This document shows, piece after piece, positions 6,831 through 61,510 of a DNA stretch of 64,000 nt. The stretch's first letter is position 1, and each line of letters opens with the position of its first letter. The stretch is taken from assembly GCF_963921235.1 (NCBI RefSeq), contig NC_086097.1, forward strand, positions 84,074,001 through 84,138,000, written 5' to 3'. Below the pieces are notes generated by a model, which was not told the origin of the DNA, made no database searches, and worked only from the letters and a program-made list of their open reading frames with translations. The position numbers were made by a program, and so were the translations under genes. The stretch comes from Mobula hypostoma (Eukaryota).

Positions 6831-7711
6831 TGTTACGTAACCGGCAACAATGAATATCAATCGAGACAGGTTATATAAAAACAACCAAACATTTGTTAAA
6901 CACGGATAAACGATAAAAAAAAAACCCAAAACTTTAACCGGAAATTAACCGTTATGCAGCCGTTCAACAAATCATCACTCGGCACTGGTTCTTAAAGCGT
7001 TAAATGCGAAAACAGTTCTTAAAGCGATAAAGTCAGATATAGTTCTTAAAATGGTAAATTCAAAAGTCCAACAGATTTATACGTTCAATTGGGAGAGACT
7101 TCTCTGGAGAAAGATTTCTTCATAGACGCGACTTTCCTGCTGGTTCTGTATACAGGATTCACGATGCAGTAAATAAACAGTTTAAAAGAACTGACCTTAA
7201 ATTCTAGAGAGAGCAAACCTTTGCATGAACTCTTTGCTGGTTTGGCAAGATTTATCTTTGATGCAGGTCACTACTCCTTCAACGAAGACTCAATAAGGTC
7301 GATCCTTTGTTAAACTGCCAAACGATACCGACTCCTCTCAATCCTTCGGTCCTGTATTTCAATAAAGTCTTCACTCTCCCTTCTACTGCTGCTGGAATAA
7401 GGTACATCAGCACATCTAGCAAAAATTTCCAGTCCAGAAATATTGTACCTTGCAACAGAATGCACAACCATTTCAAAAATGAAACTGCGTCACAAAAAAA
7501 ACATGCAACAGAAACGGAGACACAGCACATTCTACCTGGAAATCTAAAAACTAAAAACTAACTGCGTCATTTGGGGTCTACCCTTATATACCCGTGGTGC
7601 ACATGTCATCATGTGACCTCACATCGGCGGGAAAATTACATCGGGGACCTCCAAAAGACCATTACATCATTCTCACAAAAAAAAACACAGATCTCCTTGA
7701 GGCATGTAACA
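6831..7711 (-). repeat. 3' LTR of the Gmr1-like element
   Basis: TGTTACGTAACCGG...GGCATGTAACA. Near-identical direct repeat of 16894-17776. Confidence 0.95.
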
Positions 7712-8085
7712 CCTCCCTCCAAAAAAAATTGGTCTCTTAAAGAACAAAATTTTAACAATTAACAATTTATACAAAAAAAATACAAAGGTATAAAATTTAC
7801 AACATACACAATACATACACAATATATGAAATTTTCGTTATTTTTTTTCTCCAACGGCTTTCTGAGAGGCGGGACTGCGCAGGCGTGTGACGTCGGGCAG
7901 TGCAGCGCGGCAGATTTAAAAGGAACAAAGCCTCATAGAGCGGGCAGCGTAGTTTGCGGGCGGCAGAGTGAGCCGGGAGCAGAGTGAAGACTTAAGGGCT
8001 TCGGCTCACTGGGCTTAGGCGGAAGCGGGCGAAGCGAGGAAGGTTTGACATTCATTTTCTGTTGCTATTTGAGGAGAGGGGCATT

Positions 8086-9017
8086 ATGACTGTGAGGGCA
8101 GTTTGCTGTTCTCGGTGTCGGATGTGGGAGGCCCTGGAGTCTCCAAGCCTCCCGGACGTCTACATCTGCGCCAAGTGCATCGAGATGCAGCTCCTAAGGG
8201 ACCGCGTTACGGAACTGGAGCTGCAGCTCGATGACCTTCGTCTGGTCAGGGAGAGCGAGGAGGTGATAGGAGTGGAAGGCAGGTGGTCATGGCGGGGCCA
8301 CGGGAGGCAGACAAGTGGGTCACGGTTAGGAGGGGGAAGGGGAAAAGTCAGGTGATGGGGAGTACCCCGGTGGCTGTGCCCCTTAACAACAGGTACTCCT
8401 GTTTGAGTACTGTTGGAGGGGACAGCTTACCCGGGGGAAGCGACAGTGGCCCTGCCTCCGGCACAGAGTCTGGCCCTGTAGCTCAGAAGGGTAGGGCAAG
8501 GAAGAGGAGGGCAGTTGTGATAGGGGACTCGATAGTAAGGGGGTCAGATAGGCGATTCTGTGGACGCAGTCCAGAGACCCGGATGGTAGTTTGCCTCCCT
8601 GGTGCCAGGGTCCGGGATATTTCTGATCGTGTCCAAGATATCCTGAAGTGGGAGGGTGAGGAGCTAGAGGTCGTGGTACAGATAGGTACCAATGACATAG
8701 GTAGGAAAAGGGATGAGGTCCTGAAAGGAGAATATAGGGAGTTAGGAAGGGAGTTGAGAAAAAGGACCGCAAAGGTAGTAATCTCGGGATTACTGCCTGT
8801 GCCACGTGACAGTGAGAGTAGGAATGCGATGAGGTGGAGGATAAATGCGTGGCTGAGGGATTGGAGCAGGGGGCAGGGATTCAAGTTTTTGGATCATTGG
8901 GACCTCTTTTGGTGCAGGCGTGACCTGTACAAAAAGGACGGGTTACACTTGAATCCTAGGGGGACCAATATCCTGGCAGGGAGATTAGCGGGGGCTACTG
9001 AGGTGACTTTAAACTAG
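8086..9017 (+). pseudogene. CR1 ORF1p (zinc finger/leucine zipper + SGNH esterase), one frameshift near 8270
   Basis: CSRC..CAKC..LELQLDDL in ORF 8062-8355; VIGDSIVR, GTND and DGLHLN in ORF 8283-9017. Confidence 0.9.
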
Positions 9018-9022
9018 AATGG

Positions 9023-12000
9023 TTGGGGAGTGGGAATCAAATTAAAGAGGCTAGGCGTGAGGAGGTTAGTTCACAACAGAGGGATGGGAACCAGTGCAGA
9101 GAGACAGAGGGGTGTAAAGTGAGCGTAGAAGCAAAAAGTACAAAGGAGAAAAGTAAAAGTGGCAGGCCGACAAATCCAGGGCAAGCATTAAAAAAGGCCA
9201 CTTTTCAACATAATTGTACAAGGGCTAAGAGAGTTGTAAAAGAGTGCCTGAAGGCTTTATGTGTCAATGCAAGGAGCATTCGTAATAAGGTGGATGAATT
9301 GAAAGTGCAGATTGTTATTAATGATTATGATATAGTTGGGATCACAGAGACATGGCTCCAGGGTGACCAGGGATGGGAGCTCAACGTTCAGGGATATTCA
9401 ATATTCAGGAGGGATAGACATGAAGGAAGGGGAGGTGGCGTGGTGTTGCTGGTTAAAAAAGAGATTAACGCAATAGAAAGGAAGGACATAAGCTGGGAAG
9501 ATGTGGAATCGATATGGGTAGAGCTGCGTAACACTAAGGGGCAGAAGACGCTGGTGGGAGTTGTGTACAGGCCACCTAACAGTAGTAGTGAGGTCAGAGA
9601 TGGTATTAAACAGGAAATTAGAAATGTGTGCAATAAAGGAACAGCAGTTATAATGGGTGACTTCAATCTACATGTAGACTGGGTGAACCAAATTGGTAAA
9701 GGTGCAGAGGAAGAGGATTTCTTGGAATGTATGCGGGATGGTTTTTTGAACCAACATGTCGAGGAACCAACTAGAGAGCAGGCTATTCTGGACTGGGTTT
9801 TGAGCAATGAGGAAGGGTTAATTAGCGATCTTGTCGTGAGAGGCCCCTTGGGTAAGACTAACCATAATATGGTGGAATTCTTCATTAACATGGAGAGTGA
9901 CATAGTTAATTCAGAAACTTAAAGAGGGGTAACTTTGAAGGTATGAGACGTGAATTAGCTAAGATAGACTGGCAAATGACACTTAAAGGATTGACGGTGG
10001 ATATGCAATGGCAGGCATTTAAGGGTTGCATGGATGAACTACAACAATTGTTCATCCCAGTTTGGCAAAAGAATAAATCAAGGAAGGTAGTGCACCCGTG
10101 GCTGACAAGAGAAATTAGGGATAGTATCAATTCCAAAGAAGTAGCATACAAATTAGCCAGAGAAAGTGGCTCACCTGAGGACTGGGAGAAATTCAGAGTT
10201 CAGCAGAGGAGGACAAAGGGCTTAATTAGGAAGGGGAAAAAAGATTATGAGAGAAAACTGGCAGAGAACATAAAAACGGACTGTAAAAGCTTTTATAGAT
10301 ATGTAAAAAGGAAAAGACTGATAAAGACAAATGTAGGTCCCCTGCAGACAGAAACAGGTGAATTGATTATGGGGAGCAAGGACATGGCAGACCAATTGAA
10401 TAATTACTTTGGTTCTGTCTTCACTAAGGAGGACATAAATAATCTTCCAGAAATAGTAAGGGACAGAGGGTCCAGTGAGATGGAGGAACTGAGTGAAATA
10501 CATGTTAGTAGGGAAGTGGTGTTAGGTAAATTGAAGGGATTGAAGGCAGATAAATCCCCAGGGCCAGATGGTCTGCATCCTAGAGTGCTTAAGGAGGTAG
10601 CCCAAGAAATAGTGGATGCATTAGTGATAATTTTTCAAAACTCGTTAGATTCTGGACTAGTTCCTGAGGATTGGAGGGTGGCTAATGTAACCCCACTTTT
10701 TAAAAAAGGAGGGAGAGAGAAACCGGGGAATTATAGGCCGGTTAGCCTAACGTCGGTGGTGGGGAAACTGCTGGAGTCAGTTATCAAGGATGTGATAACA
10801 GCACATTTGGAAAGCGGTGAAATGATCGGACAAAGTCAGCATGGATTTGTGAAAGGAAAATCATGTCTGACGAATCTCATAGAATTTTTTGAGGATGTAA
10901 CTAGTAGAGTGGATAGGGGAGAACCAGTGGATGTGGTATATTTGGATTTTCAAAAGGCTTTTGACAAGGTCCCACACAGGAGATTAGTGTGCAAACTTAA
11001 AGCACACGGTATTGGGGGTAAGGTATTGGTGTGGGTGGAGAATTGGTTAGCAGACAGGAAGCAAAGAGTGGGAATAAACGGGACCTTTTCAGAATGGCAG
11101 GCGGTGACTAGTGGGGTACCGCAAGGCTCAGTGCTGGGACCCCAGTTGTTTACAATATATATTAATGACTTGGATGAGGGAATTAAATGCAGCATCTCCA
11201 AGTTTGCGGATGACACGAAGCTGGGTGGCAGTGTTAGCAGTGAGGAGGATGCTAAGAGGATGCAGGGTGACTTGGATAGGTTGGGTGAGTGGGCAAACTC
11301 CTGGCAGATGCAATTTAATGTGGATAAATGTGAAGTTATCCACTTTGGTGGCAAAAATAGGAAAACTGATTATTATCTGAATGGTGGCCGATTAGGAAAA
11401 GGGGAGGTGCAACGAGACCTGGGTGTCATTATACACCAGTCATTGAAAGTGGGCATGCAGGTACAGCAGGCGGTGAAAAAGGCGAACGGTATGCTGGCAT
11501 TTATAGCGAGAGGATTCGAGTACAGGAGCAGGGAGGTACTACTGCAGTTGTACAAGGCCTTGGTGAGACCACACCTGGAGTATTGTGTGCAGTTTTGGTC
11601 CCCTAATCTGAGGAAAGACATCTTTGCCATAGAGGGAGTACAAAGAAGGTTCACCAGATTGATTCCTGGGATGGCAGGTCTTTCATATGAAGAAAGACTG
11701 GATGAACTGGGCTTGTACTCGTTGGAATTTAGAAGATTGAGGGGGGATCTGATTGAAACGTATAAGATCCTAAAGGGATTGGACAGGCTAGATGTGGGAA
11801 GATTGTTCCTGATGTTGGGGAGGTCCAGAACGAGGGGTCACAGTTTGAGGATAGAGGGGAAGCCTTTTAGGACCGAGATTAGGAAAAACTTCTTCACACA
11901 GAGAGTGGTGAATCTGTGGAATTCTCTGCCACGGCAAACTGTTGAGGCCAGTTCATTGGCTATGTTTAAGAGGGAGTTAGATATGGCCCTTGTGGCTACA

Positions 12001-12036
12001 GGGGTCAGGGGGTATGGAGGGAAGGCTGGGTTCTGA
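9023..12036 (+). pseudogene. CR1 ORF2p (APE endonuclease + reverse transcriptase), one frameshift near 9917
   Basis: NARSIRNK, GITETWL, GDFN (APE); PGPDG, YRPVSLTS, GVPQGSVLGP, FADD (RT). ORFs 9023-9922 and 9943-12036 are otherwise uninterrupted. Confidence 0.95.
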
Positions 12037-12231
12037 GTTGGATGATCAGCCATGATCATAATAAATGGCGATGCAGGCTCGAAGGGCCGAATGGCCTACT
12101 CCTGCCCCTATTTTGTATGTTTCTATGTTTCTATATACAGTCTTATCTTTCAGCACTTTACAAACTAATATACAGTAGGAGTGTTACAAATGTTAAAATA
12201 CCACTCCAAAAAACAAATTTTCATTGTACAT

Positions 12232-15200
12232 TTAACATCTAGATAAACAATCAGCGATCACGTTATATTTACCCTTAATATGAGTGATCAAAATATTGTA
12301 CTCCTGTAATATTAGACTCCAATTTAATAACCTTCTATTTTTTTTTTCATCTTACTCAAAAACACTAACGGATTGTGATCGGTATAAACTGTGAGTGGTT
12401 TATGAGTAGTACCAACATACACTTCAAAATGTTGTAAAGCCAAAACAAGAGATAACAACTCTTTCTCTATTGTTGAATAATTTCTTTGACGGGCATTAAA
12501 TTTCTTAGAAAGATAAGCCACCAGACAATCAACTTCATCACCATCATCTCTTTGAAGTAACACTGCTCCTGCAGCTTCATCACTAGTATCTACAGCTAAC
12601 AAAAATATTTTTTCAAAGTCAGGAGATTTAAGTACAGGTTGACTACATATTATAGTTTTCAATTTATCAAATGCCTCCTGACAAGACTCTGTCCAAACAA
12701 ACTTTTCATTTTTCTTCAAGAGATTAGTCAATGGAAGAGCAATGTTGGCAAAATCTTTACAGAATTTTCTGTAATATCCTACCATACCCAAGAATCTTCT
12801 GAGAGTTTTTCTACAAGTTGGAGTGGGTACTTCTAAAATTGCCTGAACTTTTGCTTGAACAGGTGCTAATTTCCCCTGACCCACAACATAACCAAGGTAA
12901 GTAACTGTGGCATGATCAAATTCACTTTTAGCTAAGTTAATAGTTAAGTTAGCTTTTGAAAGTCTCTCAAATAGTTTCTTCCCTGCAGTAATATGTGCTT
13001 TCCACGTATTATTTCCTGTAACTAAATCATCAATATATGCATCTGTATCTTTTAATTCCTGAATCACACTATTAATCATCCTCTGAAAAATACCTGGTGC
13101 ATTCTTCATCCCAAATGGAAGAACATTATATTCATATAACCCAGAGGGGTTACAAATGCAGAAATCTCTCTACCTCTATCCGTCAATGGAACACACCAAT
13201 AACCTTTTAACAAATCAATTTTTGTAAGGAATTTGGCCTGTCCAACTTTATTCACACAATCATCTACCCTAGGGATTGGATATGCATCAGTTTTTGTCAC
13301 AGCATTCACCTTTCTGTAATCTGTACAAAACCTAATATTATTGTCTGGCTTTGGCACCATAACGCACGGTGAAATCCAATTCGAATTAGAAGGTCTAATA
13401 ATATTATTCTCTAACATATACTTAATTTCTCATACAGCAAGTTCACATTTTTCCCTGTTCATTCGATACGGATTTTGTTTTAAGGGTTTTGCATCTCCAA
13501 CATCTACATCATGCGTAGCTACGGTGGTTCTTCTAGGGAAGTGTGGAAATAAATCTCTATATTTAAAAATTAACTGTTTCATCTGCTCTCTCTGCTCTGG
13601 CTGTAAGTGAACTAATTTTTCATCAATATTTTCTAGAATTTTTGAATTTGGTAACCTGGCTGAAATAATTTTGGGTTTAAAATGAGTTTCAGATGAATCC
13701 TCCATTAAGTTTTTATCAAGATCAGACTCATTATTGATCACAACAGTCATAGTGGCAATCTCTCTCTCATAATACCGTTTTATCATATTTATATGACACA
13801 GCTGTGTTGTCTTTCTCCGATCTGGCGTTTTTACCACATAATCCACATCATTTACCTTAGATTTAATCTCATAAGGTCCATGAAATTTGGCTTGTAATGG
13901 GTTCGTTTGCACTGGGAAAAGAACCAACACCTTATCTCCAGGCTTAAATGACCTCATCCTAGCTTCCCTATCATACCAAGCCTTCATCTTCTCTTGAGCT
14001 AACTTTAAATTTTCCTTGGCCAAGCTACAAGCTTTATACAACCTTCTTTTAAATTTTAAAACATAATCTAGCAAATTAGTATGTACTTCTTTATTAATCC
14101 ACTGTTCCTTCAACAAGGCCAAAGGTCCTCGAAATCTATGTCCAAACACAAGTTCAAAAGGACTAAAATCTAATGATTCCTGTACTGCCTCCCTTACTGC
14201 AAAAAGTAGTAAAGTATACCTGCATCCCAGTCCTTTTCATTTTCCACACAGTATGTCCTAATCATAGTTTTTAGTGTAGAATGAAATCTCTCCAAGGCTC
14301 CTTGTAATTCTGGATGATAGGCTGAGGAAATAATCTGTTTTGCTCCCAGTTTATAAACTATCTGCTGAAACAACCCAGACATAAAGTTACTACCTTGATC
14401 TGATTGTATTTCTTTAGGCAACCCAAAATAAGTAAAGAATTTTATAAGAGCCTTTGTCACAGTTTTGGCTGTTATATTCCTAAGAGGTACTGCCTCTGGA
14501 AACCTAGATGCTGTGCACATAATAGTTAATAAATATTGATGTCCAGTTTTAGTTTTTGGCAAAGGACCTACACAGTCTACAATGATTTTTGAGAACGGCT
14601 CACCCAATACTGGGATTGGTTGCAGTGGGGCCACTGGAGTAACCTGTTTAGGTTTACCCACAATTTGACACGTATGTCATGTTCTACAAAATGTCACCAC
14701 ATCTTGTCTTAAACTAGGCCAATAAAAATGTTTAGAAACTTTGTTCATAGTTTTCTTTACACCTAAATGACTACCCAAAGGAATACTATGAACCAGATTT
14801 AAAATCTCATTTCAGTAAATTTTAGGAACTACTACCTGATGATTAACTTCCCATTCCTCACTAGCAGGAATTGTAGGCAATCTCCACTTTCTCATTAATA
14901 CCCCCTTTTCAAAATAATATCTGACTGGCACTTTTTCAATTTCACTATCTGGAAGAGCTTGTTCTTTTAATTTAACTATCTCAGGATCTCTACCCTGCTC
15001 TGCTATCATCTCCTTCCGAGAAAAAGACAAATCTTCCTGGTCAGACTTAACACCAAAATCCTGATCAAATAATATAGGTAAGAAAGTTTCTGATACATCC
15101 TCAAAATTCGAATCTTGATTTGAACTGTCATGGGTAACAACCTCATCCTTTACATCACTCTTTTTAGCCATAGCTCTTGTTACAACACAGGAAGAATCTG

Positions 15201-16762
15201 TGTTAGAATCCCTCTGTGGTTCCTCAGAATTTGAATTTATTGTCAAATTGCACTTCAGGAAAAACTTGTCCACCTGCTAAATCATTCCCTAGCAAAAGAG
15301 AAACATCATTCATAGGTAAACTGGATTGTAATCCTACTTTAACAACCCCTGTAACTAATCCTGACCTTAAATTTACTCTATGTAAATGTACTGGCATAAG
15401 GGCACTTCCAACTCCTCTTATATAATTTACCTCATGAGTGTCAGACTCATCACTAAACTTTAGCACCCTGTCTAATATTAGTGATTGAGAAGCTCCGGTA
15501 TCTCTAAGTATCCTTATTGGTACTGAATTGGATCCTTCTTTCAAGGATACAAATCCTTTTGTTATATAAGTTTCATATCCTTTCTTAACTCGGTCAGACT
15601 CTAACACATCTTCATTAATATTTTCTGAACCCTGTGGCTTTACAAGTTTTTCAATATGCTGCACACAAGCATCTGGGTCTACTTCTTTCTCTTTCCTTTT
15701 CAATCGAAAGCAATTAGCTACTACATGTCCAGGTTTTTTACAATAATTACAAACAATACCAGAATGTCTTTCCTTCACATGTCTCCCTTCATCCTTACTT
15801 ATCTCACTAACTTCAGATTTAATGTCTGATTTACCTTGACTCTCTGTGCTAGTTTTCCTTTTAAAAATTTTACCTGGAGAAAATTTATTCTTGTGAATTA
15901 AAACATACTCATCAGCTAGTTTAGCAATTTCCTGCAATGTAGCAGTGTCCCGTTTATTTAAGTATGTTCTCACTTCAACAGGAATGCTTCTTTTAAATTC
16001 CTCCTGCAAAATCAACTCTTTTAATTTATTGTTCTCCCCATTCACATTTTTAGAGGAAACCCATCTCTCAAAACACACAAATTTCTTACAGGCAAATTCC
16101 ACATAAGTTTTTTCCACCGATTTCTTCAAACTTCTGAATCTTTCTCTATACGCTTCAGGAACCATCTCATATGCCTTTAATATACGTTGCTTAACAATAT
16201 CATAATCCAGTGCTTGCTCAGCATCTAAAGCTGTATAAACTTGTTGTACCTTGCCTTTAATTACACTTTGTGACATCACTGGCCATAGCTCTTTCGGCCA
16301 CTTTAAACTCAGAGCAACAGTTTCAAAATGTTTGGAAATATTTGTCCACTTCAGCTTCATTAAATGGAGGAGCCAAAATAACCTCACGACTAGCAATAAA
16401 CTGTTTCATAGAACCAGAAGACTGATTCCCGGACTTCAATTTCTGCATCTCTAGCTCAAATTTCCTCTGGTTTTCAGTTTCTTTCCGACTCTTTTCCAAA
16501 TAAGCTTCTAATTACTTTAACTGTATTTGTTCAAGATGTAACTGCATTTCCAGCTTACTCATTGGAACTTATCTAACACCTCCTCATCAAACAATTTCAA
16601 AGTAATATAATGCTCAGTGATTTTTCTTTGTATGAAAGCCTTGGTGGAATTCTTCTTAATTCCTTTAATATCCAACTTCCTAGCAATCTCCAATACCTCA
16701 GGTTTTCTCACATTCACTAAAGACCCTAAGTCAGGTGTGTCCATAAACCCGTCAATATCCAT
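12232..16762 (-). pseudogene. Gmr1 gag-pol: SCAN-like capsid, CCHC knuckle, protease, integrase, RT, RNase H (several frameshifts and stops)
   Basis: CNYCKKPGHVVANC, LRDTGAS, IVDCVGPL..SDQGSNF..YHPELQGALER (INT, 14194-14661), FCTDYRKVN..KIDLLKGY and YIDD (RT), AVDTS..NYSTIEKE (RH). Ends VIADCLSRC* at 12232. Confidence 0.93.
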
Positions 16763-16868
16763 TGTTGCTGAATACCACTCACACCGATCAAACCAAAAAA
16801 AAATCAGATATTTCCCTTTTCCAAATCAAAATGGCAATTACCAGCACTTAAACTCAAAATCCGAACAC

Positions 16869-16886
16869 ATCCCGGATGAGCCCCCA
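16869..16886 (-). promoter_or_regulatory. Primer-binding site, tRNA-Pro
   Basis: Minus strand TGGGGGCTCATCCGGGAT, one mismatch from the canonical PBS-Pro TGGGGGCTCGTCCGGGAT, 7 nt from the 5' LTR. Confidence 0.9.
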
Positions 16887-16893
16887 CAGATTA

Positions 16894-17776
16894 TGTTATG
16901 TAACCGGCAATAATGAATATCAGTTGAGACAGGTTATATAAAAACAACCAAACATTTATTAAACATGGATAAATGATAAAAAAAACAAATGAAAACTTTA
17001 ACCGGAAGTTAATCGTTATGCAGCCGTTCAACAAATCATCACTCGGCACTGGTTCTTAAAGCGTTAAATGCGAAAACAGTTCTTAAAGCGATAAAGTCAG
17101 ATATAGTTCTTAAAATGGTAAATTCAAAAGTCCAACAGATTTATACGTTCAATTGGGAGAGACTTCTCTGGAGAAGGATTTCTTCATAGGCGCGACTTTC
17201 CTGCTGGTTCTGTTCACAGGATTCGCGATGCAGTAAATAAACAGTTTAAAAGAACTGACCTTAAATTCTAGAGAGAGCAAACCTTTGCATGAACTCTTTG
17301 CTGGTTTGGCAAGAGTTATCTTCGATGCAGGTCGCTACTCCTTAACGAAGTCTCAATAAGGTCGATCCTTTGTTAAACTGCTGAACGATACCGACTCCTC
17401 TCAATCCTTTGGTCCTGTACTTAAATAAAGTCTTCACTCTCCCTTCTACTGCTGCTGGAATAAGGTATGTCAGCACATCTAGCAAAAATTTCCAGTTCAG
17501 AAATATTGTACCTTGCAACAGAATGCACAACCGTTTCAAAAATGAAACTGCTTCACAAAAACAAACACGCAACGGAAACGGAGACATAACACGTTCTACC
17601 TGGAACTCTAAAAACTAAAAACTAACTGCGTCATCTGGGGTCTACCCTCATATACCCATGGTGCACATGTCATCACGTGACCTCACATCGGCGGGAAAAT
17701 TACATCAGGGGACCTCCAAAAGACCATTACATCATTCTCATTAAAAAAAACACAGATCTCCTTGAGGCATGTAACA
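16894..17776 (-). repeat. 5' LTR of the Gmr1-like element
   Basis: Direct repeat of 6831-7711, adjacent to the PBS. Confidence 0.95.
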
Positions 17777-43885: not shown

Positions 43886-45195
43886 GACATCTGACAGCAT
43901 GCTTTTATTGGGGTGAGGGGCTACCTACTTAGCAAAGCAGTTAAAGAAGAAGCCAAGATTCCTAAGGGCAACATTTCAATTGGTCTTTCTGAGATCAGCA
44001 ACTCCAGTCCACACAAGGGAATCTGAGTCTCCACTGAGCCAATGGAAGGAGACTTATGTATTTACAATCTAAGTACTTTGATGAGGAAGCTAAAGATTAT
44101 TAGGGTGAAAATACTTTCAGAGGTGTTGCTAAACTAAGTTCTTGCTTTCCCAAATGAGTAGTACGAGAGTGTACCAGATGAATAGTAGAATCTAGGCAGA
44201 ACAAAAGGGGATTAGTTTAAGTGGATGCTTATTGAATGCAATAAGTTTACATGGGCAGTTTCCACAGTGGGTGTGGACATTGGAATTTCGAATGGGAATA
44301 TCAATGAGAAGCTGAATGAATCACTGTAACATGAGGGTAGAATTACATTTGTGCACCTGATCTGATTGCATGTCCCTTTTTCTATTTCACACAGAGACCA
44401 TGCATGCGCCTAAATTTTATGTGTGATACAGCGGGCAATAGACTACAAAGGCAAGCAATTTCTCAAGGCACTGAGTGATAATTGAATGCTTTAGTACTTG
44501 GTGAGTAATGCTGCTAAATGTGCAGTTATATTGACTATCTAACTGTCATTAAATGCTGCCTTGAATAAATCTTCCAAGGTTTAAATAACCTTGAAAATAC
44601 ATATTTGGCATTGGTTTTGAGTTGTGGAAAGGCAAATATTTCTTCTTTTATACAGCGATAGTGCTAGCAATCAAAATAATTAAAAATCTGTTGTTGAGGT
44701 GTCAGGGACTATGTCAAGCTGCTATAAATTTATAAATAATACAAGAAAGGCTGACTTTTTAAAAGAGAAGTAGCTTCATTTCAATCTGCCAAAGGGTCTG
44801 TGACCTGAAATGTTAACCCTGTTTCTTTTACCACAGGTACCAGCTAACGTGCTGAGATTTTTTCCAACATTTTCTGTTTTTACTTCAGATTCCAGCATCT
44901 GTGGGTTTTGTATTTTCATTCAGAACTTAAACGGATGAAAGCAGCCTTTAGCGAAAGCACTGTTTTCTTTCACACAGTAACTTTTTAACAGTGGTTTGCT
45001 TTTGCCAAAGATCATTTATGTGCCCCTGAAACTCCAGAAAGAGTTGGGTTCTATTGACCAAGTCAAATCGAGTTTATTGTCATACTCACAAGTATGGTGA
45101 GACAGGTACTTTCAGCAGCGTCACGACACACAAAACACAAATTATACAAAATAGTGTAGAAAAGGCTATGAAAAAGGAGACCAGCTATCTCATAC

Positions 45196-45593
45196 CTGAG
45201 ATTCATATCTCCATCCACTGCTAGTGAGAAGATATTGGAAAGTGTTCCACCAGGACAGCATCCACAGATCAGGACAGAGAGAGCTTCGATGGAAGACAGT
45301 CTGAAAATCTTTGAAAGGCTAAAGGCTGTTAAAGGCATAATTCCATATTGAGAAAACAATGCAATCAGGACCGCTTTTGGCTTTAAGATATATTCCTTGA
45401 TCCTTGATATTTCCATTGTGCAGCCCAGAGATATCATTGTGATGAACAAAATGATGATAGAAGTGATACTTATGGCCAGATCTGTTAGCTTTCCCATTGC
45501 TCCATACCTCCATTCCAATGTTGCATTTATGCCAGGTGTGGAGTTACCATTGCTAACCTCTGCCTGAAAGTGTTCCATGCCAGTGATGTTCAT
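45196..45593 (-). CDS. slc10a1: NTCP coding exon 1 (398 bp)
   Basis: ATG in GTCAAAATGA context; N-glycosylation sequons [56 protein letters not shown]|gtatga donor. Phase 2 matches exon 2. Confidence 0.95.
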
Positions 45594-46379
45594 TTTGACC
45601 ACAGCAATTCTTGCATTACTCCAAAATCTTGTTTGCTTTGTAGCTGAGAAACTAATGCTCTCCAGATATGAAGTAGTCAGAGTGTTAACCACATTAAGGG
45701 CTGGCTTTGCAAAGTATTTTGAAGCATTTGTATCTATTCTTCTGAATTCATTACTGAATGAACTCTCTATACTTGACGAGTTCTGGCTCTGAGTATTAAT
45801 GAGTGTCGTTTAGAAATTCCATTCAGCTTAGTGTTTCAATGGTAACAATAAGTCATTCAGTTCCTTACACTTTAAATTTAATTACTTGGGAATTATGAAA
45901 AAAAAGCAATTATGTATTTGCCTGTTATCAATCCAATCATTTTATGCATGACTCAAAATTCTATGATTCCAGGGAACTGAGCAAAGAATATTTTTGTCAA
46001 TTTTACAAGTCATTCTAGATTTGCATACAAGTCATTTCCTGTTCCTGCAGTTTCTAGTGAAATTGTCTAGTTGTTCTATTTTAGACTGCAACTATTCCTC
46101 TGTGTGGAATCCTTAGAGTCAAGTCAAGTCTATTTAAGTTTATTGTCATGTGCAAAAGTATGGCGAGGAAGAGGTACAATGAAAATCTTGCTTGCAGCAT
46201 CACATGCACATAGGCTTAGACAACAAATAGTACATCAATTTTATAAGCCAGTGAAGAGAAAAAAATCTTTGAGACAAGGCATCAGTGTGAAAAAACGCAA
46301 TCAGTGACAAGTTCATCGTGGTGCAAGAGATGATCCATAGTGTTTCATTGCTGAGGTAGGATTAGGGTGCAGGTTAGTT

Positions 46380-48459: not shown

Positions 48460-49340
48460 TCCCTTGTCCATTCATCCTCCCCATCCCCTCCCACTGATCT
48501 CCCTCCCGGCACTTATCCTTGTAAGTGGAACAAGTGCTACACATGCCCTTACACTTCCTCCCTCACCACCATTAAGGATCCCAGACAGTCCTTCAAGATG
48601 AGGTGATACTTCACTTGTGAGTCGGCTGGGGTGATATACTGTGTCCGGTGCTCCCGATACAGCCTTCTATATATTGGCGAGACCTGACGCAGACTGGGAG
48701 ACCGTTTTGCTGAACACCTATGCTCTGTCCGCCAGAGAAAACAGGATCTCCCAGTGGCTACACATTTTAATTCCATGTCCCATTCCCATTCTGACATGTC
48801 TATCCACAGCCTCCTTTACTGTAAGGATGAAGCCACACTCAGGTTGGAGAAACAACACCTTATATTCCATCTGGGTAGCCTCCAACCTGATGGCATGAAC
48901 ATTGACTTCTCAAACTTCCGTTAATGCCCCACCTCCCCCTTGTACCCCATCCGTTATCTATCTATCTATTTATTTATTTATTTATTTATTATTATCAATT
49001 TTTTTTTCTCTCCCTCTCCTTTTTCTCCCTCTGTCCCTCTCACTATACTCCTTGCCCATCCTCTGGGCTTCCCCCCTCCCCCTTTCTTTCTCCCTAGGCC
49101 TCCCGTCCCATGATCCTCTCCCTTCTCCAGCCTCGTATCCCTTTTCCCAATCAACTTTCCAGTTCTTAGCTCCATCCCTCCCCCTCCTGTCTTCTCCTAT
49201 CATTTCGGATCTCCCCCTCCCCCTCCCACTTTCAAATCTCTTACTATTTCTTCTTTCAGTTAGTCCTAACGAGGGGTCTCGGCCCGAAACGTCGACTGTA
49301 CCTCTTCCTAAAGTTGCTGCCTGGCCTGCTGCGTTCCACC
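48460..49340 (+). mobile_element. Penelope-like element 3' part (GIY-YIG + terminal repeat, hammerhead at 49261-49298)
   Basis: PGTYPCKWNKCYTCP, FTCESAGVIYCVRC..YIGET. Inverted copy of 49823-50720. Confidence 0.9.
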
Positions 49341-50248
49341 AGCATTTTGTGTGTGTTGCTATTTACAAGCTTTGCAAGGCAGAGAGACCCAGGAACAGAC
49401 AAACTCTTTCTTCTTACATTAACCCAGCCAGGTTTCTTTCATTTAAACAAAACATGTTTGTCAACACAACGTTCAACATACTCATTCATATGTCAGTTAA
49501 GACACTTTAGTGGTCACTCTCTGATATTTCACAGCACACAGCATTTACAAACGTATTTGGACTTACAAAAGAACATCCATGTCTACACAGGTAAATAATA
49601 AACTCGAATGTAGATACTAAGAAGGAATCCATCAACCTAGCTCTCAAAGTGACCAATAGACATTTAGTCATTTACAGACATCCACATGTTAATGGTGGCT
49701 GAGACTAAGAAAGAATCCAGCTGTTATCAACAAACATTCTACAGACATTAACAGCCCTACAGTGTTTACTCTGTACGGACACTTCACAGACATTACTGAC
49801 ATACAGACCTCACATGCTAAGACGAGAAAATCTGCATATGCTGGAAATTCAAGCAACACACACAAAATGCTGATGGAATGCAGCAGGTCAGGCAGCATCT
49901 ATAGGAAGTACAGACGACATTTTGGGCTGAGACCCTTCACCAGAACTAACTGAAAGAAGAGATAGTAAGAGATTTGAAAGTGGGAGGGGAGGGGGAGATC
50001 CGAAATGATAGGAGAAGACAGGAGGGGGAGGGATGAAGCTAAGTGCTGGAAAGTTCATTGGCAAAAGGGACACAGAGCTGGAGAAGGGGGGAGGATCATG
50101 GGACGGGAGGCCTAGGGGGAAAGAAAGGGAGAGAGGAGCCCAGAGGAAGATGGAGAGCAGGCAAGGAGTGTTTGTGAGAGGGACAGAGAAAGAGAAAAAA
50201 GGGGGGAATAAATTAATAAGGGATGGGGTAAGAAGGGGAGGAGGGACA

Positions 50249-51848
50249 TTAACGGAAATTTGAGAAATCAGTGTTTATGCCATCAGGTTGGAGGCTACCC
50301 AGACGGAATATAAGATGTTGTTCCTCCAACCTGAGTGTGGCTTCATCTTGACAGTAGAGGAGGCCATGGATTGACATATCGGAATGGGAATGGGACGTGG
50401 AATTAAAATGTGTGGCCACTGGGAGATCCTGCTTTTTCTGGTGGACAGAGCGTAGGTGATCAGCGAAACGGTCTCCCAGTCTGCATCGGGTCTCACCAAT
50501 ATATAGAAGGCCACACCGGGAGCACTGGACGCAGTATATCACCCCAGCCGACTCACAGGTGAAGTGTCGCCTCACCTGGAAGAACTGTCTGGGGCCCTGA
50601 ATGGTGGTGAGGGAGGAAGTGTAAGGGCATGTGTAGCACTTGTTCTGCTTACAAGGATAAGTGCTGGGAAGGAGATCAGTGGGAAGGGATGTGGGGGATG
50701 AATAGACAAGGGAGTCGCATGGGGAGCGATCCCTGCGGAAAGCGAGGGGGGGGAGGGAAAAATGTGGTTATTGGTGGGATCCTGTTGGAGGTGGCAGAAG
50801 TTACGGAAAATTATATGTTGGACCCAGAGGCTGGTGGGGTGGTAGGTGAGGACAAGGGGAACCCTATTCCTAGTACGGTGGTGGGAGGATGGGGTGAGAG
50901 CAGATGTGCGTGAAATGGGAGAGATGTGTTTGAGAGCTGAGTCGATGGTGGAGAAAGGGAAGCCCCTTTCTTTAAAAAAGGAGGACATCTCCTTCGTCCT
51001 GGAATGAAAAGCCTCATCCTGAGAGCAGATGTGGTGGAGACGGAGGAATTGCGAGAAGGGGATGGCAATTTTGCAAGAGACAGGGTAAGAAGAGGAATAG
51101 TCCAGGTAGCTGTGAGAGTCTGTAGGCTTATAGTAGACATCAGTAGATAAGCTGTCTCCAGAGATAGAGACAGAAAGATCAAGAAAGGAGAGGGAGGTGT
51201 CGGAAATAGACCAGGTAAATTTGAGGGCAGGGTGAAAGTTGGAGGCAAAGTTAATGAAGTCAATGAGCTCAGCATGCGTGCAGGAAGCAGCACCAATGCA
51301 GTAGTTGATGTAGCGAAGGAAAAGTGGGGGACAGATACCAGTATAGGCACGGAACATAGGTTGTTCCACAAACCCAACAAAAAGGCAGGCATAGCTAGGA
51401 CCCATACGGGTGCCCATAGCTACACCTTTAATTTGGAGGAAGTGGGAGGAGCCAAAGGAGAAATTATTAAGAGTAAGGACTAATTCCGCTAGACAGAGGA
51501 GAGTGGTGGTAGAGAGGAATTGGTTAGGTCTGGAATCCAAAAAGAAGTGGAGAGCTTTAGACCTTCCTAGTAGGGGATGGAGGTATATAGGGACTGGACA
51601 TCCATGGTGAAATAAGGCAGTGGGGGCCAGGGAACTTAAAATCATCGAAAAAATTCAGAGCGTGAGAAGTGTCACGAACAGAGGTAGGAAGGGATTGAAC
51701 AAGGGCTGATAAAACAGTGTCAAGGTATGAAGAAACGAGTTCGGTGGGGCAGGAGCAAGCTGAGACAATGGGCCTACCTGGCCAGGCAGGTTTGTGGATC
51801 TTGGGTAGGAGGTAGAAACGGGAAGCGCGGGATGTGGGAACTATAAAG
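50249..51848 (-). pseudogene. Penelope-like RT + GIY-YIG endonuclease (frameshifted)
   Basis: FYLLPKIHK..GRPIVS, QIKGVAMGTRMGPSYA, FLRYINY (YIDD-like), FLDLSV, VYYKPTD, VIYCVQC..LYIGET. Confidence 0.92.
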
Positions 51849-54204
51849 GTCATCTTTAAAATTTTTGTACGGTAACCCTTCGGAACCACCACTTGGTGCA
51901 CCACGGCCCTATCCTCATCGGCAGGTGCTGTCAGTGGTTTCCACGTCCTCATTAGTACCCAGTCCTTCAGATAGTAACTCATTGACTCCCTCTGAATTTC
52001 ATCCTCAGAAAGAGCTGTCCCTTTTAAAACTGCAATCTCAGGATCCCTATCCTGCTCTTCCACAAGCTTCCACCTGGACAATGACAAACCCCTCTTATCC
52101 GCCTCACTACCTGGGTCCTGGTCGAACACAGATGGTAGAAAAGTTTCAGATAAGTCAGTAGGATCTGTACCCCTGTCTTTGCTACCGCAGGCACCTGGCC
52201 CCTCCCGTCCAGATCGCTTCATTTCTGCAGCCTTTCTTGTCATGCTTCTTGTGATCGCACATGTGGGATAAAGTTCACTGTCTGCACTTGTCTCACTAAC
52301 AGCAGGCCAGCTTGTTAGCTGTAACTCTGGGTATACATCTTTTCCTGCCAGGTCATTTCCCAACAAGAGGTCCACGTTAGCTATCGGTAATTTAGGTCGT
52401 ATCCCTATCTCAAATGGTCCAGACACTAAGTCACATTTCAAAATTATTTTGTGCAAAGGCACGACCTCTGTTCCCTTGCCAATACCTTCCAGAATATTCA
52501 CTTGGTCCGTTTTTGTCTCGTCACCAAATTCTAAGATATCACTGAATATCAGTGACTGAACGGCTCCAGTATTGTGCCAGATTCTCACTGGAACTAGGGG
52601 TGACCCCTCCCTCACAGACACAAAATCCTTGATAATAAACCACTCAATCCCTTCCTGAACTTGGCCAGATCCCACCTTCCTTCGTGTAGTCTCAGCCACT
52701 GGCGCACACGCGTTGGGAGTTTCCCCTTCTCCTTTCCCATTTCTTTCTTCTGAATAAGACAGTTAGACGCCACATGGCCAGGCTTCCTGCAGTAGTAACA
52801 GGTAAAACTGGAAAACTTATCTTTGGTCAGTTTCCCCTCCTCTTTACCTCTGTCACTAGCTCCCGCCTTGTTTTCTGTTTTACTCGGCGGATTATCATGG
52901 TAACTCTTCTGATAACCCTTGCTCGGGAAAAACGTAATCTTATGAGTCAGGGCAAACTTATCCGCTAACCTAGCAGCCGCGGAAAGAGTCTCAACCTCTT
53001 TCTCTTCTAAGTATGTCCGTATCTCACTAGGGACACACTCTTTAAATTCCTCGACCAGCATCAGCTGTCTCACTTTGTGGTAGTCCTCGTCTACCTCTTT
53101 CGAGGCACACCACCAATCAAAGTACCTCTCCTTTTCACGGGCAAACTCTATATACGTCTGGTTCCCAGACTTCCTCAAACCCCAAAACTTCTGTTGGTAC
53201 ACTTCTGGCACCATTTCATAGACCTTAAGCACAGCCTCCTTCACAGCATCATAATTAGTCGGCTCAGTCACAGACAAGGCAGAATATGCTTGCTGCGCCT
53301 TCCCTTTTAACACACTTTGCAGCAATACTGCCCAGTCCTCCGTCAGCCACTTCCTGTTCTGAGCCACTTTCTCAAAATGTAGGAACTACCTATCAACGTC
53401 TCCTTCAGCAAACGGAGATACCAACTTAATTTCCTGACTGTCATTAATTGATACACCCCTCTCGCCACCACTGCCTGACACTTGACCCTCTTGATGCTGC
53501 ATCTCCCTCTCAAACTCCCTCTGTCTTTCTGCCTCTTCTCTCTGTTTTTCTGCCTCTTTAGCCTCGAGCTGTTTCAGTTGCAACTCATGCTGTCTTTTCC
53601 TATCCTCAGCCTCTGGCCTGCATATCCTGAATCTCAGCCTCAGTAAGTTTACCTCCAGCGAACATTCTCAATACATCCTCAGTAAATTGTTTCGTCAAAA
53701 CATAATATTCAACTATTTTTCTTTGAATTTCTATCTTAGACATACCTTTCTTTACCTCAATTCTCAATTCTTTAGCGATGTCCCGCACAACGTCCTTTTT
53801 AGCTCTCTGCAAAATCACAGGGTTTGGCTTTGCCAGAAATTTTGCAACATCCATTTCTGTTGTTTTTCCACACAAAGATTAATTACAAGGGATTTCCCCA
53901 ATCAAGACAAGCCCCCACACAATTTCAAAAATTGGCTCCAACCAAATTTGATCTGATCCTGGACGAGCCCCCAATTTTGTCACGAACCCCGTGATGGGTT
54001 GAAAAGGACCAGCAGAAACGGAACACACCTGGAGTCTGGTTTACTATAAATTAAGACTATATTTATTACTACTACGAATTAATATCATTAAACTGGATAA
54101 TACGATACAGGTTATAAACTATTTATATATACACACACAGTATATCCGTAAATGTGTGTGTGGATACAAAAATCCAGGAGGTAGATATCAGTCTTACGGT
54201 GTCA
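51849..54204 (-). mobile_element. Second Gmr1-like family: partial 5' LTR (53978-54204), tRNA-Pro PBS (53956-53973), gag (SCAN-like + CCHC) and protease; truncated just before integrase
   Basis: PBS TGGGGGCTCGTCCAGGAT; CYYCRKPGHVASNC; WHNTGAVQS; HQVVVPK. All are homologous to 14812-16762. Confidence 0.9.
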
Positions 54205-54673
54205 GGAGGAACAACACCTTATATTCCATCTGGATAGCCTCCAACCTGGTGGCATGAACATTGATTTCTCTAACTTCCGTTAATGCCCCTCTTCCCCTTC
54301 TTACTCCATCCCTTATTTATTCTCCCCTTTTTTTCTCTCTCTGTCCCTCTCACAAGCACTCCTTACCTGCTCTCCACCTTCCTCTGGGCTCCCCTCTCCC
54401 TTTCTTTCTCCCTAGGCCTCCTGTCCCATGATCCTCCCCCTTCTCCAGCTCTGTATCCCTTTTGCCAACGAACTTTCCAGCTCTTAGCTTCATCCCTCCT
54501 CCGCCTGTCTTCTCCTATTATTTCGGATCTCCTGCTCCCCCTCTCACTTTCAAATCTCTTACTATCTCTTCTTTCAGTTAGTCCTGACGAAGGGTCTCAG
54601 CCCGAAACGTTGACTGTATTTCTTCCTGTAGATGCTGCCTGGCCTGCTGCATTCCATCAGCATTTTGTGCGTG
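54205..54673 (+). repeat. Inverted Penelope terminal repeat
   Basis: GGAGGAACAACACCTTATATTCC...GCATTTTGTGCGTG is the reverse complement of ~49860-50330. Confidence 0.9.
54579..54616 (+). ncRNA. Minimal type I hammerhead ribozyme motif (Penelope-type), core intact
   Basis: TAGTC-CTGACGA-A-GGG TCTCAG CCC-GAAA-CGTT-GACTG; palindromic AACGTT stem III typical of dimer-forming minimal hammerheads. Confidence 0.75.
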
Positions 54674-55119
54674 TCACATGCTAAGAGTTCAGAAAGTGTG
54701 AAATCGTCATTCGACCTTCCAAACATTCATCAAATGTTTTATAAAATTTAATATGACACAACATCTGACCTAATTGGTTTTGTGGATTTGGATTTTCCAC
54801 TTGACTTAGAACAGCTTGGGTTCCCATGAATCCCAGCTCCTTTTTGGAAGGTGATTATCCACACATTACCTAAAGATGTTGATCTGAAGAATGATTTCCA
54901 TAATCGCTGTAAATCCACAGCTTGTGCTGAATTTTTGTTGGAATTAGCCAGAACCCACTGTTGCTGTACTTTTGACAATAGGCTCGCAGTCTTTACGAGG
55001 AGCGCGTAAGATTTTTCAGAACACAGTGTTATGGAGTTCATGCAAATTTATATCTTGGCTTTGCAAATCACAAGTGTCAGTCTTAAAAGATGATATTTAT
55101 ACTGTACCACTTATGAAAT

Positions 55120-55690
55120 GGAATCACAATCAGCTTTATTATCACTGACATATGTCGTGACATTTGTTGCTTTTGTGGCAGCAGTACAGTACAAGAAAAT
55201 AAAAAAAATACTATAAGTTACAATAAAAAAATTACTAAGTTATAATAAAAGAAAATAAATAAATATGGTAAAAGAGGAGTAATGAAGTAGTATACATGAG
55301 TGAGGGAAGGAGTATTGATGGCAGGGGGAAAGAAGCTGTTCAGAGACTGTTGAGTGTGTGTCTTCAGGCTCCTGTACTTCCTCTCTGATGGTAGTACTGA
55401 GAAGAGAGCATGTCCTGGATGATGAAATTCCTTCAGGATGCACATCATCTTCTTGAGACACTACCTTTTAAAGACATTCTTGATGGTGGGAATGCTTGTG
55501 CCCGTGAGGCTGTTGGCTGGGTCTACAACCCTCTGCAGCCACTTTCAATCCTGTGCATGGGGGTCTCTACACCAGGCTGTGATGCAACCAGTCAGAATGC
55601 TCTTCACCGTACATCTGTAAAAATTTGCCACTCTTGCGTGACATACCACACCTCCTCAAACTCTTAATAAAGTATAGCCATTCGTGTGTA
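55120..55690 (-). mobile_element. Rex1-type 3' fragment
   Basis: HHPGHALFSVLPSERKYRSLKTHT..NSFFP. Confidence 0.8.
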
Positions 55691-60264: not shown

Positions 60265-61510
60265 ACTATTCCGCCATCTCTGTGCCTACTTCTTTGGCAA
60301 AGTCTCCCCACCCTGTATGGATAACCCCTTCTTCTGTCTTCAACCCTCCTCCTCTGATCTTCTGCCTGCTCTGGACCTTTTCATTGCCAATAACCGACAG
60401 GACATCAACCATTTCAAATTCACCACTCCTCTCTCCAGTTCCAGCCTCACTCCTTCCGAATGCTCTGCTCTCCACTCCCTCCGCACTAATCCTAACCTCA
60501 TCATCAAACCTGCAGATAAGGGGAGTGCTGCATTAGTCTGGCAGACTGACCTCTAATTCTTTGAGGCCCAGCGGCAAGATACCTCCTCTTACTTACCCCT
60601 CAAACAAGATCCTACTAAGGAGGACCAGGCCATTGTCTCCCACACCATCACCGACCTTATTAACTCTGGGGATCTTCCAGCCACTGCCACCAACCTCATA
60701 GTTCCTGCACCTCGCACCTCTCATTTCTACCTCCGACCCAAGATCCACAAATCTGCCAGTCCAGGTAGACCCATTGTTTCTGCTTGTTCCTGCCTCACTG
60801 AACTCATATCTGCATACCTTGGCACAGTTTTATCCTCCCTGGTTCAGTCCCTTCCTATCTATTTCCGTGACACTTCACATGCTCTAGATTTTTTAATGAT
60901 TTCATGTTCCCTGGCCCCGAGCATTTTATTTTTCACTATGGATGTCCAGTCCCTATACACCTCCGTCCCCCACCAGGAAGGCCACAAAGCCCTCAGTTTC
61001 TTTCTGGACACCAGACACCAGACCCAACCAGTTTCCCTCCACCACTCTCCTCCGTTTAGTGGAACATGTCCTCACTCCCTCATTCCCAAAATTTTTCCTT
61101 TGGCTCCTCCCATTTCCCTCAAACAAAAGGTGTAGCAATGGGTACTTGCATGGGTCCCACTATACCTGCCTTTTTGTCAGCTACAGTGAACAGTCCATGT
61201 TCTAAGCCTACACTGGTGTCACTCCCCAACTTTTCCTCCAGTACATCAACAACTGCATTGGTGCTGCTTCCTGCACCCCATGTGGAGCTTGTCGATTTCA
61301 TCAACTTTGCCTCCAACTTCCACCCTGCCCACAAATTTACCCGGTCCATTTCTGACACCTTCCTCCCATTCTTTAATCTCTGGAGAGAGCTTGTCTACTG
61401 ATGTCTAATGTAAACCCACTGACTCTCACAGCTACCTGGACTAATACCTCTTCCCATCCGGTTACTTGTAAAAAAACCATCCCCTTGTCTCAATTCTTCC
61501 TTCTCTGCCT
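60265..61510 (+). mobile_element. Penelope-like RT fragment
   Basis: ALHSLRTNPNLIIKPADKG, FTMDVQSLYTSVPHQEG, QTKGVAMGT, NFHPAHKFT. Confidence 0.9.

What the first reader, a model, noticed from the sequence alone, without database searches (positions are those of the whole stretch)
49810..54686. Penelope-mediated capture of an LTR-retrotransposon 5' half in one TSD-bounded insertion
A perfect 13-bp duplication (TCACATGCTAAGA) brackets three parts: Penelope 3' half (49823-51848, minus), Gmr1 partial LTR-PBS-gag-PR (51849-54204, same strand) and an inverted Penelope terminal repeat (54205-54673). Neither end of the Gmr1 piece is an integrase-made terminus: one breaks just before integrase, the other ~225 bp into the 5' LTR, probably within R. 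Both ends abut Penelope sequence. The simplest model is that Penelope RT switched template onto Gmr1 RNA during target-primed reverse transcription, giving a cross-class chimera. The alternative, a normal Gmr1 insertion followed by two deletions, is less parsimonious.
Basis: partly seen in the sequence, partly recalled or inferred. Interest (0 to 1): 0.75.

Follow-up and report, generated by a model that had tools for sequence, protein, structure and literature searches.

The report
Penelope insertion carrying half an LTR-retrotransposon
In a ray genome, one dead insertion of a Penelope-type jumping gene carries the front half of an unrelated jumping gene inside it, most likely because Penelope copied a read-through RNA that began at the other element's promoter; such capture is known, but this cargo is unusual.

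Summary
The anatomy is real. A unique 13-bp duplication brackets a 5'-truncated Penelope (with the 30-nt tail), the 5' half of a Gmr1-like LTR element on the same strand, and an inverted tail-less Penelope end. That outer frame is the textbook two-armed Penelope insertion. Public contigs bridge the right seam, show a probable empty site in one related ray and hint that another shares the insertion. All three parts are about 4% old. The two inner seams were not seen bridged.

More likely (0.45), a truncated Penelope already sat in a Gmr1 provirus, the LTR drove a read-through RNA, and Penelope RT, which initiates internally at the tail, copied only the upstream part (5' transduction). Later Gmr1 integration plus deletion stays open (0.25): the LTR piece starts with a 5/6 match to the expected terminus, so one deletion could suffice. 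No sign of an amplified chimera. No genome was held, so the donor, LTR length and start site are untested. Penelope capture of foreign DNA is known (rotifers); the scan noted host-DNA capture by Penelope in another genome, but not this cargo.

The parts
49810..49822 (.). left copy of the 13-bp target-site duplication
   Evidence: exact, only two copies in the window
49823..49856 (-). Penelope 'tail' (optional ~30-nt extension), present on this arm only
   Evidence: family contigs end at two places, 49824 and 49855/6 (table 7); the other arm stops at the base matching 49857
49823..51844 (-). arm B: 5'-truncated Penelope-like element (RT core, thumb, GIY-YIG endonuclease, 3' pseudo-LTR with decayed hammerhead), frame broken near 51.6 kb
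   Evidence: tblastn with a Mobula Penelope protein, 86% over 195 aa; GIY-YIG E=0.0012, below the Pfam cut-off
51845..51850 (-). inner seam J1, 6 nt unassigned; Gmr1 pol frame runs into the Penelope RT frame without a stop
   Evidence: Penelope match starts 51844; Gmr1-family contigs stop matching at 51850/51851 in three runs (table 3); ORF 51557-52762
51851..53977 (-). Gmr1-like internal 5' half: primer-binding site 53956-53973, gag from 53854 (SCAN, zinc knuckle), protease, linker, first residues of the integrase zinc-binding region; several frame breaks
   Evidence: Pfam SCAN 5.7e-10 and zf-CCHC; tblastn with P0001, P0121, P0122, P0235; no IN core, RT or RNase H of this element in 46-58 kb
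53978..54204 (-). 227-nt LTR piece: either the 3' part of a longer LTR or a complete short LTR
   Evidence: ends in TGACA before the primer site; about 315 single-copy depths in run X1 against about 18 for the internal part; 5' end ambiguous
54205..54673 (+). arm C: inverted Penelope 3' end without tail, with an intact minimal hammerhead core at 54584-54607
   Evidence: 41 of 465 differences to arm B, 64 of 461 to the neighbouring copy A; motif scan
54674..54686 (.). right copy of the 13-bp target-site duplication
   Evidence: bridged with arm C and flank by an error-free 508-nt contig of run X1; a single-copy contig of run X9 matches from exactly 54674 and has 87 other letters before it (table 8)

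Best explanation
One Penelope retrotransposition event made the whole 4.85-kb insert from an RNA that was already chimeric (5' transduction). Step 1 (inferred): elsewhere in the genome a 5'-truncated Penelope came to lie in sense orientation at the start of the integrase of a young Gmr1-like provirus, by ordinary insertion or by capture during LTR reverse transcription. Step 2 (inferred): the Gmr1 LTR drove a read-through RNA. Step 3 (inferred from in-vitro work on another Penelope): Penelope RT/EN made a 13-nt staggered cut and started cDNA internally at the tail, so everything downstream (integrase, RT, RNase H, 3' LTR) was left out, and copied up into the 5' LTR. Step 4 (anatomy shown, chemistry inferred): the other strand primed a short cDNA at the second, tail-less start site, giving the inverted arm, and the two ends were joined. 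Shown: TSD, arms, tail asymmetry, orientation, similar ages, probable empty site. The copy is dead and apparently single.
For: Outer frame matches the described Penelope pattern, inverted end plus tail on one side plus TSD (PMC3846280, PMC8557442). Arms B and C belong together more than either does to copy A and carry 20 and 19 private changes. Ages agree: 4.4% per arm (3.7% outside CpG) and 4.1% (40 of 965) for the Gmr1 piece against long family contigs of run X9; the run-X9 organism, 5.7% away in the flanks, seems to lack the insert, which leaves little time for three separate events. Same strand, promoter element upstream. Penelope RT initiates inside a longer RNA and extends both cut strands (PMC11167929, first two of four parts). 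Penelope ends mobilise intervening DNA in trans (PMC3846280). A non-LTR element nested in another Gmr1-like provirus lies in this same window (CR1-like in 6831-17776).
Against: No donor locus was seen; no genome could be searched. The LTR piece starts with a 5/6 match to the expected terminus, which favours a complete short LTR, and its only TATA-like words lie inside the piece, downstream of the break. Neither inner seam was shown bridged by reads. A 4.4-kb cDNA is long for a family whose copies in this window are short. The donor must have lacked an inverted arm at its own 5' seam.
Confidence: 0.45

Rival explanations
1. Nested insertion and deletion. A normal two-armed Penelope inserted first; a Gmr1-like element then integrated into arm C; a later deletion removed its 3' half together with the Penelope inversion seam. 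One deletion suffices if the 227-nt LTR is complete, two if not.
For: LTR piece begins TG, 5/6 match to its own inverted end (0.3-0.4% by chance per position); TATA-like words at 74-84 and AATAAA at 138 fit a U3-R-U5 layout; no letters shared with Penelope at that seam. The Gmr1 relative and Penelope share a 7-letter word at the position matching J1 (0.8% by chance), which suits a microhomology deletion as well as a retrotransposition seam.
Against: Needs three events at one site in a short time. The intact relative in the window has 886-nt LTRs with a 6-nt terminal inverted repeat. The mismatch at the terminus is a transversion at a normally fixed base. The same five letters also occur in Penelope about 21 nt upstream of the arm-C start, so they may not be LTR.
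Confidence: 0.25
2. One reading: during this one target-primed reverse transcription the Penelope RT left its own RNA and jumped onto a Gmr1 RNA or RNA fragment, copying it to the LTR.
For: Same orientation, 5'-truncated 3' partner, direct repeats and equal ages fit. The Gmr1 family has RNA-run contigs (run X15, RNA is a guess). Template jumps are shown for other non-LTR RTs (PMC8857657, passages) and proposed for Penelope inserts (PMC3846280).
Against: Described switch chimeras have a full-length 5' partner (PMC2104539); here half of the Gmr1 RNA is missing and there is no poly(A) at J1 (longest A run 5), so a jump to an internal site or a broken RNA is needed. In-vitro jumps go to template 3' ends (PMC8857657, passages).
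Confidence: 0.18
3. DNA-level patch: while the two Penelope arms were being joined, repair synthesis copied 2.35 kb from a Gmr1 provirus or cDNA.
For: Explains two arbitrary breakpoints and equal ages; Penelope in rotifers captures intron-containing host DNA (PMC3846280); an unchecked scan note describes a Penelope-linked 10-kb inversion in this genome.
Against: Does not predict the same-strand orientation or an end inside the 5' LTR; 2.35 kb is long for a templated patch (own knowledge).
Confidence: 0.09
4. Assembly artefact or chance neighbours.
For: Inner seams not seen bridged; all parts are repeats.
Against: Perfect TSD, tail asymmetry, bridged right seam, empty-site candidate; the copy's own letters occur at single-copy depth in run X1 at 15 of 35 shown sites and in run X5 at 7 of 35.
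Confidence: 0.03

Closest known systems
Penelope-mediated capture of host DNA in Adineta vaga (Arkhipova et al. 2013, PMC3846280; parts 1-4 of 5 read)
   Same: Foreign sequence between Penelope terminal repeats, one inverted repeat, one TSD, empty site with a single target copy, mobilisation in trans.
   Different: There the cargo is a host gene or spacer between two direct pseudo-LTRs; here it is the promoter-gag-protease half of an LTR retrotransposon between a truncated ORF and the inverted arm, in a vertebrate.
Canonical two-armed Penelope insertions with tail (PMC8557442, passages; PMC11167929, parts 1-2 of 4)
   Same: Inverted 5'-truncated copy at the 5' end, tail on one end only, hammerhead motif, TSD.
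   Different: 2.35 kb of unrelated element lies at the inversion seam.
LINE template-switch chimeras (Gogvadze et al. 2007, PMC2104539; part 1 of 5 read)
   Same: Two RNAs joined in the same orientation, 5'-truncated 3' partner, direct repeats.
   Different: 5' partner is not full length; the enzyme is a Penelope RT; an inverted arm is present.
5' transduction by L1 and SVA from upstream promoters (recalled; searches listed no paper)
   Same: Upstream promoter, read-through RNA, upstream sequence moved with the element inside one TSD.
   Different: Penelope RT starts internally, so downstream sequence is dropped and no poly(A) is left; donor not identified here.
LINE-made processed copies of HERV-W (PMC2936387, one passage)
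   Same: LTR-element RNA copied by non-LTR machinery, with an incomplete LTR.
   Different: Those keep the retroviral 3' end and carry no piece of the mobilising element (their structure is recalled).

Membership tests
EN+ Penelope-like element insertion | PLE-type RT followed by C-terminal GIY-YIG endonuclease | tested here: met
   86% to a Mobula Penelope protein; GIY-YIG E=0.0012, 19.5 bits, under the 22.6 cut-off
EN+ Penelope-like element insertion | inverted 5'-truncated copy of the 3' end at the 5' side | tested here: met
   54205-54673, 89.9% to arm B
EN+ Penelope-like element insertion | 30-40 nt tail on one end only | tested here: met
   two family end sites, one used by each arm
EN+ Penelope-like element insertion | hammerhead motif in the pseudo-LTR | tested here: met
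   core intact in arm C, decayed in B; no Rfam match; cleavage untested
EN+ Penelope-like element insertion | target-site duplication with single copy at the empty site | tested here: inconclusive
   TSD exact; X9 contig matches from 54674 with 87 non-Penelope letters before, but these letters were not displayed
Penelope/Poseidon versus Neptune clade | [quoted passage not shown] | not tested
   no tree built
Gmr1-like LTR retrotransposon | SCAN-bearing gag followed by protease | tested here: met
   definition from bioRxiv 10.1101/2025.03.03.638093, passages
Gmr1-like LTR retrotransposon | integrase upstream of RT | tested here: met
   piece runs from protease and linker into the start of Integrase_H2C2; full order seen in the relative at 6831-17776; PMC8220671 passage
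Gmr1-like provirus made by integrase at this site | two LTRs and a 4-bp TSD | tested here: not met
   one LTR piece, no second copy in the window; the relative has both
Gmr1-like provirus made by integrase at this site | intact TG-bounded 5' LTR terminus | tested here: inconclusive
   5/6 match; family LTR length not obtained
LINE-type template-switch chimera | 5' part is a full-length RNA copy | tested here: not met
   integrase core, RT, RNase H and 3' R absent
LINE-type template-switch chimera | same orientation, direct join, direct repeats | tested here: met
5' transduction | donor locus with the same upstream sequence and seam | not testable with these tools
   no genome held
5' transduction | 5' end at or downstream of the upstream promoter's start site | not testable with these tools
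   only contigs available, which show no RNA starts

The most novel reading that the evidence does not exclude
The donor was a working cross-class hybrid: an LTR-driven Gag-protease polyprotein fused in frame to Penelope RT and endonuclease, which moved its own RNA by Penelope-type target priming, so that an LTR element swapped its integrase-RT for a Penelope engine and this is one of its offspring.
Probability: 0.05. Interest if true: 0.8.

Novelty: new variant of a known kind. Interest (0 to 1): 0.4.

Why it matters
If the read-through model holds, it is genomic evidence in a vertebrate for a consequence of the internal initiation seen in vitro: a promoterless Penelope fragment can borrow any upstream promoter and move kilobases of upstream sequence while dropping all that follows, leaving no poly(A) mark. 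With very many Penelope copies in rays this would be a general route for shuffling promoters and 5' exons, and it is directly testable by a donor search. The single copy itself is dead and has no shown function.

Tried and rejected
No genome is held, so genome-wide seam searches were impossible. Two DNA patterns from the LTR found 0 matches in metagenome contigs; gag found no relative in viral contigs. A translated LTR frame found 0 hits among cluster representatives. No RNA holder listed above a small share. The one read-laying run was swamped by Penelope contigs; 2768 joints and 10098 loose ends were not shown, among them whatever lies at 54204 and at the empty site. Chimeric proteins: of the 120 listed of 301 hits, 55 match only the Gmr1 part, 62 only the Penelope part, and 3 span the seam but are plain Penelope RTs aligned loosely. 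The LTR piece has no significant likeness to the relative's LTR (52 of 300 shuffles score as high), so the relative's TATA word 255 nt from its end, which would put a start near our break, is only a coincidence to note. A 5-bp inverted match across the LTR seam is chance-level (23%). Letters shared by arms B and C against copy A cannot be split into subfamily and donor-private without more copies. Copy A (48460-49361) is a separate, more distant insertion. Rfam gave 0 matches. Scan look-ups by sequence and nearby place found nothing. Paper searches listed no Penelope carrying part of an LTR element; searches listed nothing; the library lacks most subscription papers and I opened no supplements.
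Full report
Setting. The nearest proteins are from Mobula, Hypanus and Hemitrygon, so the window is from a ray-like cartilaginous fish. No whole genome is held. Evidence beyond the window comes from one laying of public contigs of four coded runs, two protein searches and papers.

Observation. The 13-mer is found only at 49810 and 54674; chance is about 7e-5 for any 13-mer pair within 20 nt of both ends. Between them lie arm B (49823-51844, minus; Penelope RT, GIY-YIG, 3' end), a Gmr1-like piece (51851-54204, minus) and arm C (54205-54673, plus; inverted Penelope 3' end, 89.9% to B). The Gmr1 piece has 227 nt of LTR, a primer site (read as tRNA-Pro from recall), SCAN and zinc-knuckle gag, protease and linker, and stops about 12 residues into the integrase zinc-binding region. 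No integrase core, RT or RNase H of it remains in 46-58 kb. The pol frame runs into the Penelope RT frame without a stop, which has a one-in-three chance. Both parts have frame breaks.

The outer frame is one Penelope event. An inverted truncated copy, a tail on one end and a TSD are the described pattern (PMC3846280, parts 1-4 of 5; PMC8557442, passages). Family contigs end at two sites, 49824 and 49855/6 (table 7). Arm B uses the first and arm C the second, as expected from the two start sites of Penelope RT (PMC11167929, parts 1-2 of 4). B and C differ at 41 of 465 positions and each differs from neighbouring copy A at about 65. In run X1 a 508-nt contig with no differences covers 54643-55150 and bridges arm C, TSD and flank by the minimum 31 letters. 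In run X9 (another organism) a single-copy contig matches from exactly 54674 into unique flank and has 87 other letters before; these were not displayed, so the empty site is probable, not shown. In all four runs contigs showing a difference at 54705 end 31-32 letters away, that is at the first base of the TSD, so the 13-mer belongs to the target.

Age and copy number. Arms: 4.4% each (3.7% outside CpG). Gmr1 piece: 40 of 965 (4.1%) against three long X9 contigs, 6 of 227 against one X1 contig. Flanks: 1.1% to X5, 5.7% to X9. Of the 35 Gmr1 rows shown (824 rows of the table were not shown), the window's own letter has about single-copy depth at 15 in X1, 7 in X5 and 1 in X9. This hints that the X5 organism shares the copy and X9 does not. 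The family has roughly 18 internal and 300 LTR copies by summed depth in X1, a rough figure. Family contigs stop matching at 51850/1 in X1, X5 and X15, and none of 120 listed proteins (of 301) is a true chimera, so nothing points to an amplified hybrid. A single donor is not excluded. Neither inner seam was displayed as bridged.

How the Gmr1 half got in. (1) Read-through, 0.45. A truncated Penelope in a Gmr1 provirus is transcribed from the LTR. Penelope RT starts inside the RNA at the tail, ignoring what follows (shown in vitro for the anole element), so integrase, RT and 3' LTR are lost and cDNA ends in the 5' LTR. This needs only a common nested insertion and a known trans activity; a CR1-like element nested in another Gmr1-like provirus lies in this window. 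Unchecked scan notes on gag-only LTR families that hold captured RNAs in place of pol give a second way to form the donor. (2) Later integration and deletion, 0.25. The LTR piece starts with a 5/6 match to the expected terminus (0.3-0.4% per position) and has TATA-like and AATAAA words in a plausible order, so it may be a whole short LTR and one deletion would do. Against: equal ages, a narrow time window, an 886-nt LTR in the relative, and the same five letters in Penelope just upstream of the arm-C start. From unverified recall, ray LTRs of this type are several hundred bases long; I treat that as a lead only. (3) Template jump in the same event, 0.18. It needs an internal landing site; described chimeras have full-length 5' partners (PMC2104539, part 1 of 5) and in-vitro jumps use template 3' ends (PMC8857657, passages); there is no poly(A) at J1. 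(4) DNA-templated patch, 0.09. (5) Artefact, 0.03. These odds are my judgement, not computed. A 7-letter word shared by the Gmr1 relative and Penelope at the position matching J1 (0.8% by chance) suggests microhomology but does not separate the models, and the relative is only about 65% alike.

Comparison with what is known. Capture of foreign DNA between Penelope ends, within one TSD and with an empty allele, is described in Adineta (PMC3846280). LTR-element RNA copied by LINE machinery is known for HERV-W (PMC2936387, one passage). 5' transduction by L1 and SVA is recalled; searches listed nothing. PMC9977147 (passages) held nothing relevant. Gmr1 features are from bioRxiv 10.1101/2025.03.03.638093 and PMC8220671 (passages). 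PMC4476161 was seen only as a listing. Searches listed no Penelope carrying part of an LTR element; the library is partial and no supplements were opened.

Verdict. A real, dead, apparently single Penelope insertion with unusual cargo. It works like known Penelope capture; it fails the full-length-partner test for a classical template-switch chimera; it is not an intact provirus. New variant of a known kind, interest 0.4. The boldest reading not excluded is a self-mobile Gag-protease-Penelope RT/EN hybrid (0.05). The family LTR length and a donor search would settle most of it.

Noticed in passing
window 6831-17776 (minus): Full-length Gmr1-like provirus of another family: 886-nt LTRs 5% apart, 4-bp TSD, order gag-PR-IN-RT-RH, with a near-intact CR1-like element (about 8235-12036, plus) nested between RNase H and the 3' LTR.
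   Followed up: partly
window 45063-45809 (minus): Exon of a sodium/bile-acid symporter (SLC10-like, Pfam SBF 7.7e-25). The insertion lies about 4-9 kb upstream on the same strand, so its LTR points towards this gene.
   Followed up: no
window 48460-49361 (plus): Separate tail-less Penelope 3' fragment of a different subfamily, tail to tail with arm B across a 450-nt spacer; forms a 500-nt inverted repeat with it.
   Followed up: partly
window 49400-49809 and 54674-54770: The target itself seems to be a low-copy repeat of unknown kind: several contigs at more than single-copy depth in the three DNA runs.
   Followed up: no
window 60278-61505 (plus): Older Penelope fragment (78% to arm B) that extends upstream of the J1 position.
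   Followed up: partly
window 262, 19258, 26610, 35127: Short Penelope-type 3' ends with minimal hammerhead-like cores.
   Followed up: no
P0125, P0127: Mobula gene models named MACC1 and phosphatidylserine decarboxylase carry a Gmr1-like SCAN gag; either captured host sequence or gene-model fusions.
   Followed up: no
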